A stretch of DNA of 64,000 nt from Styela clava (taxonomy: Eukaryota): positions 7,192,001 through 7,256,000 of the forward strand of contig NC_135262.1 of NCBI RefSeq assembly GCF_964204865.1, in the 5' to 3' direction. Of the stretch, positions 15,001 to 21,000 are shown in pieces (position 1 is the first letter of the stretch; the number at the start of each line of letters is the position of its first letter). Made by a program: the position numbers.

Positions 15001-18000
15001 GGGTTAGTTTATTATTTGCCATTGTGCTGCGCCCAATTATCCTGTTTTTGTCTCATACTCTTCCATTTTTATATACCAGTCTCGGATAGAAGTTCCTCAA
15101 CCTCGGGTCCCAATTAAACATAAAACATATGTCCCCTCACACCTATATAGTAAAAAAAACTACGCCAGAACCGAGTAGTTAGGAACATGAATCAAAAAAA
15201 GTAGTAGGAGTTAGTTTATTATTTGCCATTGTGCTGCGCCCAATTATCCTGTTTTTGTCTCATACTCTTCCAGTTGTGTTTCCTTAGTATTGTGACAGAA
15301 ATGTTAAAGAGAAATTGAGAGATGTAACATTATACAACTGTTTATATATTCCGGAATAATCCTTGTGTTCTACACTGAGTTTTAGTATCATCAGGTACAG
15401 ACTGCTACAGCTCAATCAAGTACTGTATTAGGGAATTTTATGGGACTGAACGTGGCAATGCAGTTTTCAAATTTCAAATGTTCACAATCGTGCTAATTAC
15501 TCCTGGATTTTGCATATTTTGTTCATGCTTGTTAGTCGACTACATACAGGCATGCGGAACACTATAGCATAATTGGAGCTAGTGGCATTTCTATAGATCG
15601 ACTGTGGTGCTTCAAATATATAATCAGTTTTAATTGGTATTACCCGAAAAATATGAATTATCAACTTATCCTAAGTTCTAGGTTTAGGATACGCTTTGGG
15701 ATACGAAATGTATGTAATAACGGTACTCGAGACTGGTGGATTTTGCACCGACTGTAATATAAGTAGCCCATATGGCGAGAAGCTACAAAAAATCCACAAA
15801 AACACAATACGAAATATTTTATTACCTCAAGATGTTACGTTTAAAAGCAAAGTAAAAAGAAGGAAGAGATGGAACTGAATCTGTCAGCAAAGAAGGGGTT
15901 CTACAACTATTAAAGTTTGTCATCCGAAAAGATCACTGAGTTGGCGATTAAGACAATGATATGAGCGCCACGAAAACATCATTTGTCGTTTTCGCTGTCG
16001 TCATGATATGGTTGTATTTCTTCAGCGTCAATTTCGTAAAGTTGAACAGTGTCATGATTATTGATACGTCGATTTCTTTTCACGCGCTTACGAACACAAC
16101 AAAATAGAGACAGGAACACGACTGGAACCAGACCAATGATGCCAACTGCAATGTAAGTAAGATTATTTGAGGGAGTGAGTGCAGTGGTTGTAACGTCCCC
16201 ATTTGTTATTTCAGTATTACCAGTCGATAAAACGGTGCTTATGGTAAATGTAGTTGACGTTGAATTCGACGTCATAGTAGTTGTTATTCCGATGGTGCTA
16301 ATATATACTGGCTCTTCTGAGTGGGGTATTATGGTTGTATAATATATTTTCAGCTCGTCTAATATAAAGCTTGGTCCGCCAGTTTCGCCTACCACTAGAT
16401 TTGTCATCGGCAAAGGTTCAGAATTTACTGTTGTATGGCCGATATGTGTTTCTCCTGATATTAGAGTATCATTCAGCATAATGTTTATTGTATGATTAGC
16501 TTTGATCCACTTGATTTCGAGATGAGACCAATGGTCCAGTATATAAGACTCTTTGAAAGTTGTCTCGTATGTCTTTCCTAGTGATCCACGAATGTATACC
16601 ACCACGTTTCCGTCATCGCCCTTTCCAAAATAAATACCTGGTAAGTCTCTAGCGCCCGTGAGAGTTTTAATAATGCTCTGGCCACTGGTTTGGCCCCAAT
16701 TTTCTAACTTTAGCCAAAAGACAATCGTTGCTTCATTGCAATACTCTATATTGTAGATGCAATCGTGTTCAGTTAAATTTCTGGCTATCACGAATCGCTT
16801 TCCCGGTAAATAAATAGCTTTGCCAACAACGCCGGTACGAAATACATCAATTTCGCTTTGCATTAACGAGCCAAAGTCACCATAATATCTGCTTTCCAAA
16901 CTGTATTCAGGAACAACTTTACTTCCATCACATTCATCAAATGACCATGCCACAGTGGGGTATTTGTGCTCAGCTTGTGCTCCTGCTACATAAACAATAA
17001 CCAAAATCGTAGTCAACAACAAGTTCTGCATATTGTCTTTTATAAACTAATATTTGACACATTGTCATGTACTTATATTTTATTAGCGGCCATGCAACTT
17101 CCGCATTGACGCATTATTCCCACGCAGTTTGCGTCAACTGCAGTGTCTTGTGATGGTGCAATAACTTCAGGTGAAATCTTCTTGGTTAATTCACTAAAAT
17201 ATACTTATACCCTGCCTGACATTATAGCAGTAATATATAACGTTAACGTTAAAATTATAACGTTGGCCTAAAATTAGTCGATTGTTTTCATGTTTAGGCA
17301 AGGGTATGATTGTCTATAGTTTATAAGTATGATTTTAAGTTTGCGTGGTTTTCAAAAAATTATTTGGTAAACTCTATGTGTCATGATGTTTGCGAAATGC
17401 CTACTGCTATTTTGGAATGTTTATGTTCTTCCCCAGCGTATTATTTTCAGATTATTCCCCGAAAATCTCACGAAACGTGACAAATGACGGCGTGTAAAGC
17501 AAAATCGTATTACCATTTTACAATGCGACACATTTGAAATAATCGAATATGGAATACTATAATTTTTATGGCAGTATAAGTGTTAGAACTGGTCGAGAAT
17601 TTTTTCTTACAATATTATTTGTAAGATTGTTAGTTTATATATAATTTATTCACATGATTTTTTTTTTTCAATATGCCGTTTATGAGTTACAAATCTGCTA
17701 TAAAACGCCAGGTTTGTTGATATAGGTAGAGTGCTTTGGCCCAGCCAAAGATTCCGACTCTACATTGTGCCCGAAGATCGAAATTTACGCAAGGCGATTG
17801 AACGGTAAAAAGTACGTTTTTGTCAAATTTAAACAATTATTTCACGTTTTATTTCCCTTTTCGCCTAATAATATTGAAATCTATACCGTGCCAGTGTCCT
17901 AACCTTCCTGTCCAAGTCATTGACACTCATTTCAGTTGTTTTGACGAACTCAATCCTAATCGCAGAAAAAAATACGAAATAAATTTACAGGAGCCATTTT

Positions 18001-21000
18001 TGTATTGAAGATTTATTGAACAAAAAATTAATTCGAGTGAAATCAACACAAATAAAGTAAATCACAAAAAGTTCTGGTAAAAGAACAAACAAATCATTTC
18101 ATTAAATAAAACACATTTTTTTAAAAGCTATCGTTAATATAACATAATTAATATAAATTACATTCGTAGAAATTTCGCGTAGATGAAAAATCCAACATAT
18201 AAAAAGTTTCAACCGGAAATTGAGCAGAGTTAAAATTGGAGTCAAAGCTTAAATATGCATTACAAAAAAAATTTAATACAAAGTGCAGTTGGAAATCGGT
18301 CATACAAGGGGCTGGGTGCAAGTTTTAGACCATACGTAAATGCCGAGATTGTGAAAAGATTTCAACCAGCATGGGAGACTCGAAGTTTTTAAAGTAATTT
18401 TTAGAAACAAAAGAGTGAATATATATTTTAGAGTAATAGATGTCAATAAAAAATAAAATATTTTATTGTTGAAGATATGATAGGAAGAAACGGAGAAACA
18501 ACAAAATTAATAAGCGAGAAAAGATAATATCGTTTAATATGGGTAATGCGATATCTAATCGCCAATTACGCTTTTCGCCATTTTGAAAGTCTGTCAGAAG
18601 ATTGATATTCTTCAAAAATATTTCTGACTTATACAGCAGACGATGGTTGTGGCGAGTGTAACAGGCGGCCGTTTTGCTCTTCCGCGTCTGTGTCCTCTGT
18701 GTCGAGGTTCGACCCTTCGTCATGATATGGCTCCACAGCACTTGCTCTTTCATAGCCACCACTCACCTTGGAGAAAGCCACAGCTCCGCCATCAGTTTCC
18801 ATTCGACGACCACGTCGCCTTCGAGCGCAGATAAGCCAGACAAGACATACGGATAACGCAGCGATTGCAATAAAAGCAATCAAGATTGGAACCCATATGT
18901 TCCAGTACGTTTCGGCCCCTTTTCCGTTTGTCAACTGAGTTTGGCTCGTTGTCTCTACCGTGGATAGAGCCGTGGTGTCTTCGGGGCTGGTCGAAGCCTG
19001 ATTGGTAGATTTAGTAGTCGGCGAGTTTGAAGTTTGGGTAGTTGTGCTGGATGTGGTTAATTCATGAGATGTGCTAATAGAGGTAATAGGTGGGGTCGTA
19101 GGATTGCTAGTAGAAGTCGAACTAGTGGTAGTAGTTGATGCGGTCGTGGGATTGCTAGTAGAAGTCGAACTAGTGGTAGTAGTTGTAGTTGATGTGGTCG
19201 TGGGTGTAGACTTTGTCGTTGTTGTTGTTGTAGCTGGGACTTTGCCGTAGCCATAGTATACATAAAACTCGTCCAGGTAGAAGCTAGGTCCGTTTTCGCT
19301 TCCAACGACAAAGTTTGTAGTGAGCACTGCTGTTGGCGCGACATCCTCTTCTTTAAGAATAAGAGGTATATACTGTGAATTCACATAGACAGTAATGTAT
19401 CCAAAAACGTTCCAATCAAAAACAATATGTGCCCACTTGTTCCACGCATACGACTGATCGAAGGTGTGAAAAAAGCTTTCTCCTTTAGAACCTCTGTAGA
19501 CAATAATCAAGTCACTACCATTACCTTTGCCGAAATACACGCCTGCCGAGCTCCTGTCTTCTGGAGTAGTTCGAAATATAACGGGTGATGAGGCGTTATT
19601 CCAGCTTTCAATTTTCAACTGAAAAGACAATACGCTTCCAAGTCTGCACGTGTCCGGATCTCGTAAACAAACGTCTTTAATGCCCGTTGCCAGATTGAAT
19701 GTCTTTCCGTTTACGTAAACAGCGTTTGATTGCACTCCAGGCACTAAAATTTCATCCAAATTTGTGCCCAAAGGACTTAAATCGGCTTGGTATTTTTCAT
19801 CCTTTGTATAAATCGGTATTACTTTGGTTCCGTTCAAATCATCAAACGACCACATTACTATTGGAGTAAGGGCGCTCTCCGAATCACAAACAAATAACAT
19901 CAGAAACAGGAATAATACGGAATACATCATATTCATTTTTGTACTTTGAAAAATGTTCGACTTGCTTTTTCTATTTCGTTGCGTTGATGCTATTCAGAAC
20001 ACGTACGTAATAACGTCTTTTGATTGTTGTTCTTAGTTTTATAAGTGCATCATTCAGCATAACGTTGCGACACGAGATAATGCATTTGTGTAATGCATCT
20101 TTAATCACGTGACGTGATCTATTCGAGGAAGTTCCCAATAATGAAGAGGCCACCTACACAGTGATGTGCACGCAATTCAAAACTTGATTTTGTTTGTCAA
20201 CTCCGGTTTGAAAATTTTGTTTATTATACACGACCATGTATCAGCCAACGCTAATGCATAACGTTATATCACTAGTTCATGCCACAGCAAACACACAAAA
20301 CTGGACAACGCAAACTTTAATTTGATTTGGTGACCTGCTGCCCATAACTATGATCTAATTTTGACGCGATATTCATATTCCACAGAATTCTTCCTTATAT
20401 TGAATATAATATAGGCTATATGAACCAAACTTGGGGTCATGAATTCTACAGTGTTTTATCAAATTTTGGGTTGTTTGTAGGCCTATAACATTTGGGTTGT
20501 TTGATTCATACTGGAGTTGTTACAATTAGTTGTTACAAGTCTATATGTATTTTATATTCCATAGAGCTTCATCCACAAGTAAAATATTCAGTCATTCAAG
20601 AAAAAATGTATTTTAGCCGTATACTACTCTGATTTCTCAGACATAAAATTTTTCAGACATAATCTCTTTCAATTTTTTCCTTCTCGATTACCGTAAACAT
20701 TTTATTTTCAAGCGTGCACCAGGAAAAAAATGGTACATGTCCGTCTAACGTACTACGGTAAATGCAAAATATAAAGTGGGCATTCAATTTTGTTAGTTTT
20801 TATTATGTCGGGGACTTGGGGTATGATCATCATGCACTGGGCCTAAAGACTATACCATGTGCGCTATATAATTGAATAAAGCTATGTTTTATGTGCTAAA
20901 AATATTAAATAAACCCATAATGTATAGCAGGGCTACTCAACTGGCGGACCGTGGTCCGAATCCGGACCTTTCGACCATTTACTTTGGACCGCGTCTGCTT

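What the first reader, a model, noticed from the sequence alone, without database searches (positions are those of the whole stretch)
15979..19936. Tandem pair of orphan receptors: stand-alone GPR133-type pentraxin domain on a mucin stalk
Seen: two intronless paralogs with signal peptide, LamG/pentraxin domain, S/T stalk, single TM and short tail. Known: the C-x6-C motif before the (T/S)x(S/V)F(W/Q)LK strand (CIYNIEYC, CLRDPDTC), together with WxH..W and NLV(V/I)G...DEF, closely recalls the pentraxin domain of adhesion GPCR ADGRD1/GPR133 as I remember it. There is no GAIN or 7TM domain here. Inference: a lineage-specific single-pass lectin or adhesion receptor family, possibly retroposed and then duplicated. 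The ectodomains are strongly diverged and the stalk lengths differ (about 60 versus 105 aa), as often seen in recognition or immune receptors.
Basis: partly seen in the sequence, partly recalled or inferred. Interest (0 to 1): 0.72.

Follow-up and report, generated by a model that had tools for sequence, protein, structure and literature searches.

The report
Ascidian single-pass LamG mucin-stalk proteins
Two neighbouring sea-squirt genes encode cell-surface glycoproteins that hold a lectin-like jelly-roll domain on a sugar-coated stalk; the same domain type sits at the tip of ADGRD1-like adhesion receptors in acorn worms, but here it is anchored by a single membrane helix, and its function is unknown.

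Summary
Two uninterrupted minus-strand ORFs (15979-17031, 350 aa; 18629-19936, 435 aa) are paralogues (31% identity, E=3e-37). Each has a signal peptide, a ~215-aa domain, an S/T-rich stalk, one TM helix and a short acidic tail. They belong to a small uncharacterised family: 7 further representatives at E 8e-50 to 2.5e-25 plus a Ciona savignyi protein at 9.1e-09; the named members are Styela clava and Ciona savignyi. A confident AlphaFold model (pLDDT 90.7) is a ConA-like/Laminin_G_3 jelly-roll. It is not a pentraxin in the strict sense: no Pfam Pentaxin hit, no pentraxin signature, no inter-strand disulfide, and no detectable similarity to a fish ADGRD2 or ADGRG6 PTX domain. It is homologous (hhalign 98.9%, E=2e-17) to the N-terminal domain of hemichordate LamG_3-GAIN-7TM receptors, sharing a WSFD strand and a C-x6-C hairpin. 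Those receptors sit nearest chordate ADGRD1 clusters, which carry Laminin_G_3 and list no Pentaxin. So the "GPR133-type" recollection is indirectly supported, but vertebrate ADGRD1 could not be compared directly, and the module also occurs in other architectures. The window holds no GAIN/7TM exons. The duplication is old, and retroposition is untested. This is a new single-pass variant of a known module; the likely role is ligand binding or adhesion.

The parts
15979..17031 (-). Gene A, complete uninterrupted CDS (350 aa plus stop)
   Evidence: paralogue of B; matched by family members from elsewhere, e.g. P0003 at 3.7e-43 by tblastn
16972..17031 (-). A: signal peptide, residues 1-20 (cleavage after ..AQA is inferred)
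   Evidence: hydrophobic N-terminus read directly; no predictor was run
16324..16971 (-). A: LamG_3-type jelly-roll domain, residues 21-236, with WSFD (29-32) and C91-x6-C98
   Evidence: AF2 pLDDT 90.7; Foldseek; Pfam Laminin_G_3 26.0 bits, just under the cut-off of 27.6; motifs
16156..16323 (-). A: S/T-rich stalk, residues 237-292 (46% S+T, 2 N-x-S/T sites)
16093..16155 (-). A: transmembrane helix, residues 293-313, ending in two Cys (311, 312)
   Evidence: hydropathy 2.56; Cys positions
15979..16092 (-). A: cytoplasmic tail, residues 314-350 plus stop: basic stop-transfer cluster, then ..LYEID..IQPYHDDSEND
15818..15823 (-). AATAAA 156 nt after A's stop codon
   Evidence: read; consensus match only
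18629..19936 (-). Gene B, complete uninterrupted CDS (435 aa plus stop); identical to an NCBI protein model
19880..19936 (-). B: signal peptide, about residues 1-19 (cleavage site uncertain, 19-22)
   Evidence: read; no predictor was run
19238..19879 (-). B: LamG_3-type jelly-roll domain, residues 20-233, with WSFD (29-32) and C90-x6-C97, the only two Cys in the mature ectodomain
   Evidence: direct tblastn match to the Ptychodera aGPCR domain, 30% over 172 aa
18887..19237 (-). B: mucin-like stalk, residues 234-350 (61% S+T, 9 Pro)
19094..19185 (-). 48-bp (16-codon) tandem duplication inside B's stalk, 1.9 copies, 97% matching
18824..18886 (-). B: transmembrane helix, residues 351-371
   Evidence: hydropathy 2.91
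18629..18823 (-). B: cytoplasmic tail, residues 372-435 plus stop: RRRRGRR, ..GGYERASAVEPYHDE.., an acidic S/T cluster, ..NGRLL.., C-terminal ..SAV
18462..18467 (-). AATAAA 162 nt after B's stop codon
   Evidence: read; consensus match only
20037..20043 (-). TATAAAA 101-107 nt upstream of B's ATG (possible core promoter)
   Evidence: read; consensus match only; the 5' ends are undefined

Best explanation
These are two anciently duplicated genes, each with a single coding exon, in an ascidian genome. The genome is inferred to be Styela clava. They encode type I membrane glycoproteins of a small, uncharacterised family whose named members are all ascidian. Shown: the N-terminal ~215 residues form a ConA-like jelly-roll of the Laminin_G_3 kind. 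It belongs to a subclass marked by an extra N-terminal strand carrying W-[ST]-[FM]-[DE] and, 59-64 residues later, a C-x6-C pair just before the core strand. The same module, with the same two marks and spacing, forms the N-terminal tip of hemichordate LamG_3-GAIN-GPS-7TM receptors that resemble chordate ADGRD1. Here the GAIN and 7TM parts are absent, and the module is carried by an S/T-rich stalk, one TM helix and a short tail. Inferred: the signal peptide is cleaved; the two Cys form a local disulfide; the stalk is heavily O-glycosylated and holds the domain well above the membrane; the jelly-roll binds an extracellular ligand (glycan or protein) at its loop rim, as LamG, pentraxin and ConA-like domains generally do. 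The tails carry no catalytic domain. They have juxtamembrane Cys and a basic cluster, then a conserved Tyr-containing motif (..[IVL]-[EQ]-[PN]-Y-H.. in A, B and P0005), acidic S/T clusters and, in B, P0006 and P0009, an ..R-L-[LI] motif. I therefore favour a binding, adhesion or sorting (endocytic) role over enzymatic signalling. The identity and architecture are well supported; the function is an inference.
For: ORFs and paralogy. Family: the exhaustive HMMER search over 1.84 billion representatives gave 50 hits at E<=1e-3. P0003-P0009 (354-447 aa) scored E 8e-50 to 2.5e-25, followed by a gap to 1e-12. All 9 full-length family proteins (the two window ORFs and P0003-P0009) have the domain, one C-terminal TM and the C-x6-C pair. 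Named members are Styela clava LOC120333206 and Ciona savignyi H2Z8A8. Fold: AF2 with 31 sequences gave pLDDT 90.7, pTM 0.88. Foldseek PDB gave 340 matches at E<=1e-3, the best being jelly-roll lectin-like domains with TMq 0.52-0.64. The PDB profile search agrees. In the Atlas, 24 of 30 hits are clusters carrying only Laminin_G_3, the first three at 0.97. Pfam Laminin_G_3 is above its cut-off in 5 of 7 non-window members. aGPCR link: hhalign of the family against P0012 gave 98.9%, E=2e-17, 223 columns. The family HMM scores P0012 at 78.4 bits, the best outgroup. The motif pair is present in 10/10 family proteins and 3/3 hemichordate receptors. For P0062, the top Atlas clusters are chordate ADGRD1, with Laminin_G_3 in 98-100% of members. 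No GAIN/7TM in the window: tblastn with 10 aGPCR C-terminal parts gave only E>=0.84. Age: there is no A-B DNA similarity; the tree gives A+(B+P0005) at 87/79.
Against: The window's own proteins do not reach the Pfam cut-off (A 26.0 vs 27.6 bits; B no hit at E<=1). There is no expression evidence, and ORF A's exact translation is absent from the protein collection. The link to ADGRD1 is indirect. No vertebrate ADGRD1 sequence was compared. None of the 50 hits is a vertebrate aGPCR: only 4 have a 7TM, and they come from a hemichordate, a nemertean and two echinoderms. In the reciprocal search the ascidian proteins (18.8-55.2 bits; A only 18.8, rank 53) are interleaved with other proteins carrying the module. 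In the tree the outgroups are unresolved, and the family split has only 80/82 support. The 7TM part of P0012 scores higher against latrophilins than against ADGRD2. An ML tree in PMC10687090 (passage read) places ADGRD1's domain in a 'PTX' cluster, so 'pentraxin-like' in the broad sense is not excluded. No ligand-binding residues were identified. The tail motifs match no motif I could test with a tool. The function of ADGRD1's own domain is unknown, since PTK7 binding does not need it (PMC10445595, passages read).
Confidence: 0.65

Rival explanations
1. The domains are true pentraxin (PTX) domains, so the proteins are membrane-anchored pentraxins that would bind ligands through calcium and oligomerise like CRP, SAP or the neuronal pentraxin receptor.
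For: The superfamily relationship is real. The broad profile A3 reaches a SAP-like pentraxin (3.8e-9) and PTX3 (1.6e-7) in the PDB. P0009 has a weak Pentaxin hit (17.2 bits, below the cut-off of 25). Databases call the ADGRD1 domain 'PTX' (PMC10687090 and PMC10445595, passages read).
Against: No Pfam Pentaxin hit for A or B at E<=1. The pentraxin signature H-x-C-x-[ST]-W-x-[ST] is absent from all 17 proteins checked. The disulfide between two core strands that PMC10687090 reports as conserved in CRP, SAP, NP1 and ADGRG4-PTX cannot form, because B's mature ectodomain has only the two Cys that lie 7 residues apart. The family HMM scores a fish ADGRD2 PTX domain at -2.6 bits and two ADGRG6 at 3.7 and 1.2 bits. 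hhalign against ADGRD2 gives probability 1.1%. No pentraxin appears among the Foldseek matches listed (46 rows, ranks 1-49).
Confidence: 0.04
2. The ORFs are 5' exons of a larger adhesion GPCR and are spliced to GAIN and 7TM exons elsewhere.
For: The same module sits N-terminal to GAIN/7TM in hemichordate receptors. A consensus-like donor (AAG|GTGAGT) lies inside B's tail at 18761-18769.
Against: Each ORF already ends with its own TM helix, basic stop-transfer cluster, tail and stop codon, followed by AATAAA about 160 nt later. The ..PYHD.. motif downstream of the donor-like site is conserved in A. B's full ORF equals an NCBI protein model. tblastn with the GAIN/7TM parts of 10 aGPCRs finds nothing in the 64 kb (best E=0.84). 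Seven relatives from elsewhere have the same single-pass layout.
Confidence: 0.02
3. They are not receptors but membrane-tethered or shed mucin-type surface-coat components (of epithelium, tunic or egg coat), with the jelly-roll acting as a matrix or glycan cross-linker.
For: The stalks are S/T-rich and vary widely in length across the family (25-154 aa). B's stalk has a recent 48-bp duplication. The tails are short and lack a signalling domain. Pfam gives weak Endomucin and TMEM154-like matches over the stalk and TM.
Against: Tail motifs are conserved among members, which a passive anchor would not need. Two members have stalks of only 25-28 aa. No cleavage site or SEA/GPS-type module was found. 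This rival overlaps with the best explanation rather than excluding it.
Confidence: 0.2
4. They are fast-evolving immune or allorecognition receptors.
For: The paralogues are strongly diverged (31% identity), the stalk lengths vary, and they are arranged in tandem.
Against: The divergence reflects age rather than demonstrated positive selection. B groups with P0005 rather than with A, and there is no DNA similarity. The family is small: 8 representatives other than ORF B at E<=1e-8, counting the Ciona protein. The core residues, including the Cys pair, are invariant. No polymorphism, dN/dS or haemocyte expression data were available.
Confidence: 0.08
5. One or both are decaying retrocopies without function.
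For: The coding sequences have no introns, while annotation models of the paralogue LOC120333206 include an isoform with a clean 37-residue internal deletion, hinting at introns there. ORF A's translation is not in the protein collection.
Against: Both frames are intact over 350 and 435 codons (chance expectation 4e-7 and 3e-10). Both keep all 12 columns invariant across the 9-member alignment. Each has its own start context and AATAAA. There is no poly(A) tract or target-site duplication in the flanks as read. The neighbouring 816-aa TPR gene is also a single open frame, so intron-poor coding sequence is not unusual in this stretch.
Confidence: 0.05

Closest known systems
N-terminal 'PTX-like' (Pfam Laminin_G_3) domain of ADGRD1/GPR133-type adhesion GPCRs, represented here by hemichordate receptors P0012 (Ptychodera flava), P0062 (Glandiceps talaboti, annotated ADGRD1-like) and P0063 (Saccoglossus kowalevskii)
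   Same: Homologous domain over its whole length (hhalign 98.9%, E=2e-17, 223 columns). It sits at the extreme N-terminus after a signal peptide. It has the same W-S-F-[DE] strand and C-x6-C pair at the same spacing. An S/T-rich linker follows the domain. Chordate ADGRD1 clusters carry Laminin_G_3 and list no Pentaxin.
   Different: There is no GAIN, GPS or 7TM; a single TM helix and a short acidic tail take their place. The ascidian proteins are not the exclusive sister of these receptor domains. Vertebrate ADGRD1 itself was not compared, because no sequence was obtainable with the tools.
Pentraxins proper and the PTX domains of ADGRD2/GPR144 and ADGRG6/GPR126
   Same: Same superfamily fold (a jelly-roll beta-sandwich). 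Remote profile similarity is detectable with a broad alignment.
   Different: There is no Pentaxin Pfam match, no pentraxin signature, and no Cys pair that could form an inter-strand disulfide. The family HMM scores fish ADGRD2 and two ADGRG6 at -2.6 to 3.7 bits. The fish ADGRD2 domain does score 61.9 bits on Pentaxin and has no C-x6-C in its first 700 residues.
Generic Laminin_G_3 / ConA-like jelly-rolls with solved structures: lectin-like Hc-N subdomains of clostridial neurotoxins and NTNH, domain 4 of the Geobacillus arabinanase AbnA, and an S-layer-associated domain (4qvs)
   Same: These are the best structural and profile matches: 5hon_A TMq 0.60 / TMt 0.62; 8byp_N TMq 0.64.
   Different: They are bacterial, only 10-19% identical, and sit in unrelated architectures. 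Nothing suggests toxin function here; the match is to the fold alone.
Other marine-invertebrate proteins carrying the same C-x6-C LamG_3 module: Ptychodera polycystin-1-like P0024, Owenia metalloendopeptidase P0023 and ASC-channel fusion P0010, multi-LamG_3 aGPCRs of Tubulanus, Antedon and Acanthaster, and unnamed single-domain proteins of 180-290 aa
   Same: The same module, scoring in the same range as the ADGRD1-like domains. P0024 also has the W-T-M-D strand.
   Different: Their architectures differ. None of those examined has the domain-stalk-TM-tail layout of the ascidian family.
Mucin-stalked type I lectin-like surface proteins of vertebrates, such as the thrombomodulin/CD93/endosialin group (recalled as an analogy only; not tested)
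   Same: The layout is the same: an N-terminal carbohydrate- or protein-binding globular domain, an O-glycosylated S/T-rich stalk, one TM and a short tail.
   Different: The binding domain there is a C-type lectin fold with EGF repeats. No homology is implied.

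Membership tests
Pfam Laminin_G_3 (PF13385) / ConA-like lectin-glucanase clan | Score at or above the curated cut-off (27.6 bits) on the family HMM | tested here: inconclusive
   A scores 26.0 bits (E=1.1e-5), just below the cut-off; B has no hit at E<=1. Among the 7 non-window members, 5 are above the cut-off (31.3-54.2 bits), P0009 is below (24.3) and P0005 has no hit.
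Pfam Laminin_G_3 (PF13385) / ConA-like lectin-glucanase clan | Jelly-roll beta-sandwich fold | tested here: met
   AF2 model with pLDDT 90.7, pTM 0.88, all-beta. Foldseek gives 340 PDB matches at E<=1e-3, the best being LamG_3/ConA-like domains. In the Atlas, 24 of 30 hits are clusters carrying only Laminin_G_3, the first three at 0.97.
Pentraxin family (PF00354) | Match to the Pentaxin HMM | tested here: not met
   No hit for A or B at E<=1. Only P0009 has a sub-threshold 17.2 bits. As a positive control, fish ADGRD2 scores 61.9 bits.
Pentraxin family (PF00354) | Pentraxin signature H-x-C-x-[ST]-W-x-[ST] (pattern recalled from PROSITE) | tested here: not met
   The regex is absent from all 17 proteins checked, including A and B.
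Pentraxin family (PF00354) | Conserved disulfide linking two core beta-strands (PMC10687090, passages read) | tested here: not met
   B's mature ectodomain has only C90 and C97. A has C34, C91 and C98. The invariant pair is the local C-x6-C.
ADGRD1-type N-terminal module (as in hemichordate ADGRD1-like receptors) | Homology over the full domain, including the N-terminal W-S-F-D strand and the C-x6-C before the core strand | tested here: met
   hhalign 98.9%, E=2e-17. The family HMM scores 78.4, 49.1 and 47.5 bits on the three receptors. The motif pair at 59-64 residue spacing is present in 10/10 family proteins and 3/3 receptors.
ADGRD1-type N-terminal module (as in hemichordate ADGRD1-like receptors) | Direct similarity to the vertebrate ADGRD1/GPR133 domain | not testable with these tools
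   No vertebrate ADGRD1 sequence was returned by any search, and sequence from memory may not be used. The only indirect evidence is that chordate ADGRD1 clusters are the nearest to P0062 and carry Laminin_G_3.
Adhesion GPCRs | GAIN/GPS autoproteolysis domain and a secretin-like 7TM | tested here: not met
   No GAIN, GPS or 7tm_2 hit in A or B. A single hydrophobic segment follows the domain. There is no such coding sequence in the window.
Type I mucin-stalk membrane glycoprotein (an architectural class, not a homology family) | N-terminal signal peptide, S/T-rich stalk, one TM near the C-terminus, cytoplasmic basic cluster | tested here: met
   Composition and hydropathy; sequences. The signal-peptide cleavage site and glycosylation are inferred; no predictor was run.

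The most novel reading that the evidence does not exclude
The ascidian family may be what an ADGRD1-like receptor's N-terminal fragment became after being uncoupled from GAIN/7TM. It would be a membrane-tethered, mucin-stalked copy of the receptor's ligand-binding tip that still binds the unknown ligand of the ADGRD1-type domain. It could act as a decoy, a co-receptor, or a presenting partner in trans. This may have happened in a lineage where an ADGRD1-type 7TM receptor with this domain is lacking. If so, these simple single-pass proteins would be a tractable handle for deorphanising the N-terminal domain of ADGRD1/GPR133.
Probability: 0.12. Interest if true: 0.65.

Novelty: new variant of a known kind. 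Interest (0 to 1): 0.4.

Why it matters
The N-terminal domain of ADGRD1/GPR133 has no known ligand, although the receptor matters in glioblastoma, bone and oviduct biology. PTK7 binding does not need this domain (PMC10445595, passages read). This finding shows that the same kind of module exists in the sister group of vertebrates as a small family of simple single-pass proteins. It also shows that the module is of the Laminin_G_3 type with a WSFD strand and a C-x6-C hairpin, and is not a true pentraxin. That sharpens the annotation of the aGPCR 'PTX' domains: on this evidence the ADGRD1-like and ADGRD2 domains differ in kind. This fits the report that the two receptors do not cluster together (PMC6900090, passages read). 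It also offers an easy soluble ectodomain for ligand screens. On its own it is an example of ordinary extracellular domain shuffling, so the interest is moderate.

Tried and rejected
1. phmmer of A against PDB sequences gave only a chance TM match (E=1.2).
2. The word-indexed homologue search with A residues 1-240 scored nothing among 391 candidates. With the 9-member full-length alignment it returned only P0004 among 7974 scored candidates. The low-complexity stalk probably swamped the word index, so that search says nothing about taxonomic range.
3. The first AF2 run, on the 2-sequence alignment, was unusable (pLDDT 49.5) and was not used for fold search.
4. phmmer of the Ptychodera receptor's N-terminal 268 residues against the PDB gave 0 hits at E<=10, so no solved aGPCR ectodomain with this module was found by sequence.
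5. The 419 bp upstream of A and of B do not align better than chance, so no shared promoter was found.
6. blastn of the locus against the window found no A-B nucleotide similarity at E<=1e-5. dN/dS between A and B was not attempted because synonymous sites would be saturated at 31% protein identity.
7. No tRNA and no Rfam family was found in the window.
8. Literature searches for the family or its identifiers found nothing relevant.
11. Neighbouring multi-exon genes were scanned exon by exon.

Full report
**What is there.** They are the fourth and second longest open frames in the 64 kb. At this base composition, the numbers expected by chance for frames of these lengths are 4e-7 and 3e-10. 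BLASTP between them gives 31% identity over 234 residues, E=3e-37, covering the whole ectodomain. tblastn with ten family proteins (the two window ORFs among them) and one aGPCR finds these two copies and no third in the window. The window has no N.

Each protein has a hydrophobic N-terminus and then a ~215-residue domain. After that comes an S/T-rich stalk (A 56 aa, 46% S+T; B 117 aa, 61% S+T) and one strongly hydrophobic segment (A 293-313, B 351-371). A basic cluster and a short acidic tail of 37 and 64 aa follow. B's stalk contains a 48-bp tandem duplication, 1.9 copies at 97%, which accounts for part of the length difference. Each ORF is followed by AATAAA 156 or 162 nt after its stop, and TATA-like strings lie upstream. 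These are consensus matches only, and the 5' ends are undefined.

**Organism.** ORF B's exact translation is in the protein collection as an NCBI protein on a contig of 20,344,166 bp. The Styela clava protein XP_039256511.2 (LOC120333206, 'uncharacterized') is on a contig of the same length. I infer that the window is from that Styela clava chromosome and that this is a third paralogue on it. ORF A's exact translation is not in the collection, so I cannot say whether or how it is annotated.

**Family.** Pfam gives only a near-threshold Laminin_G_3 hit for A (26.0 bits against a cut-off of 27.6) and nothing for B's domain. The word-indexed search found nothing. The exhaustive HMMER search of 1.84 billion representatives, using the profile of the two ectodomains, gave 50 hits at E<=1e-3. 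These were B itself, then seven proteins of 354-447 aa at E 8e-50 to 2.5e-25, then a gap to 1e-12. All seven have the same layout as A and B. One is the Styela paralogue. The other six come from unnamed assemblies, which I did not trace. A 243-aa Ciona savignyi entry (H2Z8A8) also belongs to the family. The family is therefore found in at least two distant ascidians.

In a domain tree the ten single-pass rows separate from the outgroups with 80/82 support. A groups with B+P0005 (87/79), and B is nearer to P0005 than to A (90/72). Together with the lack of any nucleotide similarity between A and B, this points to an old duplication.

**Fold.** With 31 aligned sequences AlphaFold gives pLDDT 90.7 and pTM 0.88, an all-beta model. 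The 2-sequence run had failed. Foldseek against the PDB returns 340 matches at E<=1e-3. The best are the lectin-like jelly-roll subdomains of clostridial neurotoxins and NTNH, and domain 4 of the arabinanase AbnA (TMq 0.52-0.64; 5hon_A TMt 0.62). The profile search of PDB sequences agrees, and also reaches a SAP-like pentraxin (3.8e-9) and PTX3 (1.6e-7). In the ESM Atlas, 24 of 30 hits are clusters carrying only Laminin_G_3, the first three at 0.97. Five of the seven non-window members exceed the Laminin_G_3 cut-off. The fold assignment, a ConA-like jelly-roll of the Laminin_G_3 kind, is secure. The toxin matches are matches to a fold, nothing more.

**Pentraxin?** In the strict sense, no. There is no Pentaxin Pfam hit for A or B, and no pentraxin signature in any of 17 proteins checked (the pattern is recalled from PROSITE). 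PMC10687090 (passages read) reports that CRP, SAP, NP1 and the ADGRG4 PTX-like domain share a disulfide joining two core strands. B's mature ectodomain has only two cysteines, seven residues apart, so that bond cannot exist.

As a positive control, a fish ADGRD2 (Scleropages formosus, P0154) scores 61.9 bits on Pentaxin. It has a cysteine inside each of two core strands, with a pentraxin-signature-like motif at the second, and no C-x6-C in its first 700 residues. The 9-member family HMM scores it at -2.6 bits and two ADGRG6 proteins at 3.7 and 1.2 bits. hhalign of the family against ADGRD2 gives probability 1.1%.

**GPR133-type?** The support is indirect. Four of the 50 hits are adhesion GPCRs: one each from Ptychodera, Tubulanus, Antedon and Acanthaster. 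The Ptychodera receptor P0012 is LamG_3-GAIN-GPS-7tm_2. It is the best outgroup to the family HMM, at 78.4 bits over HMM positions 7-207. hhalign gives probability 98.9%, E=2e-17, over 223 columns. Two more hemichordate receptors of the same architecture, one annotated 'ADGRD1-like', score 49.1 and 47.5 bits.

All ten family proteins and all three receptors have W-[ST]-[FM]-[DE] followed 59-64 residues later by C-x6-C. The Cys pair is invariant in all 31 rows of alignment A3. For the 'ADGRD1-like' receptor, the nearest Atlas clusters are chordate 'Adhesion GPCR D1' (0.99, 240 of 256 features). Their Pfam make-up is 7tm_2 + GPS + Laminin_G_3 in 98-100% of members. An ADGRD2 cluster carries Pentaxin in 90%. 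[quoted passage not shown]

Four caveats apply.
- I could not obtain a vertebrate ADGRD1 sequence from any tool, so no direct comparison was made.
- None of the 50 hits is a vertebrate aGPCR.
- In the reciprocal search with a hemichordate-domain profile, the ascidian proteins score 18.8-55.2 bits (A only 18.8). They are interleaved with other carriers of the module: a polycystin-1-like protein, multi-LamG_3 aGPCRs and unnamed single-domain proteins.
- An ML tree in PMC10687090 puts ADGRD1's domain in a broad 'PTX' cluster.

So the domain belongs to the same module class as the ADGRD1-like tip, but that class is wider than ADGRD1.

**Not part of a larger receptor.** tblastn with the GAIN/7TM parts of ten aGPCRs finds only noise in the window (best E=0.84). 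Each ORF ends in its own TM, tail and stop. A donor-like AAG|GTGAGT lies in B's tail (18761-18769), but the ..PYHD.. motif downstream of it is conserved in A, and the NCBI model reads through it.

**Retroposition.** This is untested. The flanks show no poly(A) tract or target-site duplication. An older annotation isoform of LOC120333206 lacks exactly residues 59-95, which hints at splice junctions in that paralogue. I could not see its gene. The neighbouring 816-aa TPR gene is also one open frame.

**How it probably works.** The architecture is shown; the function is inferred. The likely picture is a cleaved signal peptide, a jelly-roll stabilised by a local Cys hairpin, and an O-glycosylated stalk that projects the domain. 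Ligand binding would occur at the loop rim, as in LamG, pentraxin and ConA-like domains generally.

The tails have no catalytic domain. Shared features are juxtamembrane Cys, a basic cluster, a Tyr-containing motif (..[IVL]-[EQ]-[PN]-Y-H.. in A, B and P0005; a related ..LEPEE.. in P0003), acidic S/T clusters, and ..R-L-[LI] near the end in B, P0006 and P0009. I read these as docking or sorting signals, so I favour binding, adhesion or uptake over enzymatic signalling. No tool tested these motifs. The ligand of ADGRD1's own domain is unknown, since PTK7 binding does not need it (PMC10445595, passages read), so no ligand can be transferred by homology.

**Ascidian ADGRD receptors in the literature.** Kamesh et al. 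2008 list no GPR133/GPR144 orthologue in Ciona, and 24 unclassified adhesion receptors, 21 of them with only a GPS domain (PMC2396169, Table 1 and passages). Wittlake et al. [quoted passage not shown] Their supplements were closed. Whether ascidians have an ADGRD1-type receptor with this domain therefore stays open.

**Novelty.** Four searches of the paper library found nothing on this family: one on architecture terms, one on adhesion GPCR with Saccoglossus and Laminin_G_3, one on the identifiers and domain name, and one on Styela with ConA-like. The proteins are database entries named 'uncharacterized'. I rate this a new single-pass variant built from a known module, of moderate interest.

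Noticed in passing
window 5351-7801 (-): A single 816-aa open frame with TPR repeats and a C-terminal RPAP3_C domain (66.9 bits), i.e. a SPAG1/RPAP3-like gene. It appears to be one uninterrupted frame, like genes A and B.
   Followed up: partly
window 24272-24886 (-), 31638-32300 (-) and 44506-45804 (-): Exons of a SOCS-family gene: the start of an SH2 domain at the end of the 31638-32300 frame, and a SOCS box in the 24272-24886 frame, about 6.7 kb apart. Further upstream is a 432-aa serine-rich frame with no Pfam hit, which may be another exon or another gene. Exons were scanned separately and not joined.
   Followed up: partly
window 14400-14780, 7831-8065, 11414-11519: A repeat present three times in the window (67-74% identity). 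On the minus strand of the first copy, its core reads like a tRNA-derived SINE head with box A-like and box B-like motifs. ARAGORN calls no tRNA there.
   Followed up: partly
window 18761-18769 (-): A consensus-like 5' splice donor (AAG|GTGAGT) inside gene B's cytoplasmic tail. If used, it would replace the conserved ..PYHD.. tail. No evidence of use.
   Followed up: no
window 17238-17252 and the upstream regions of both genes (about 17240-17290 and 20060-20280): A (TAACGT) 2.5-copy microrepeat upstream of A, and several AACGTTA-like strings upstream of both genes, although the two upstream regions do not otherwise align.
   Followed up: no
P0053 vs P0004 (Styela clava LOC120333206, not in the window): Annotated isoform X2 lacks exactly residues 59-95, which removes the invariant C-x6-C hairpin. 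It is either a skipped 111-nt exon or an annotation artefact.
   Followed up: partly
hits: P0010, P0023, P0024, P0022, P0026, P0041: The C-x6-C LamG_3 module occurs in very different marine-invertebrate proteins: an ASC-channel fusion and a metalloendopeptidase (Owenia), a polycystin-1-like protein (Ptychodera), and aGPCRs of which two scanned with Pfam (Tubulanus, Antedon) show five LamG_3 stretches. Five bacterial MshQ/DUF6701 proteins also scored, at a more generic level.
   Followed up: partly
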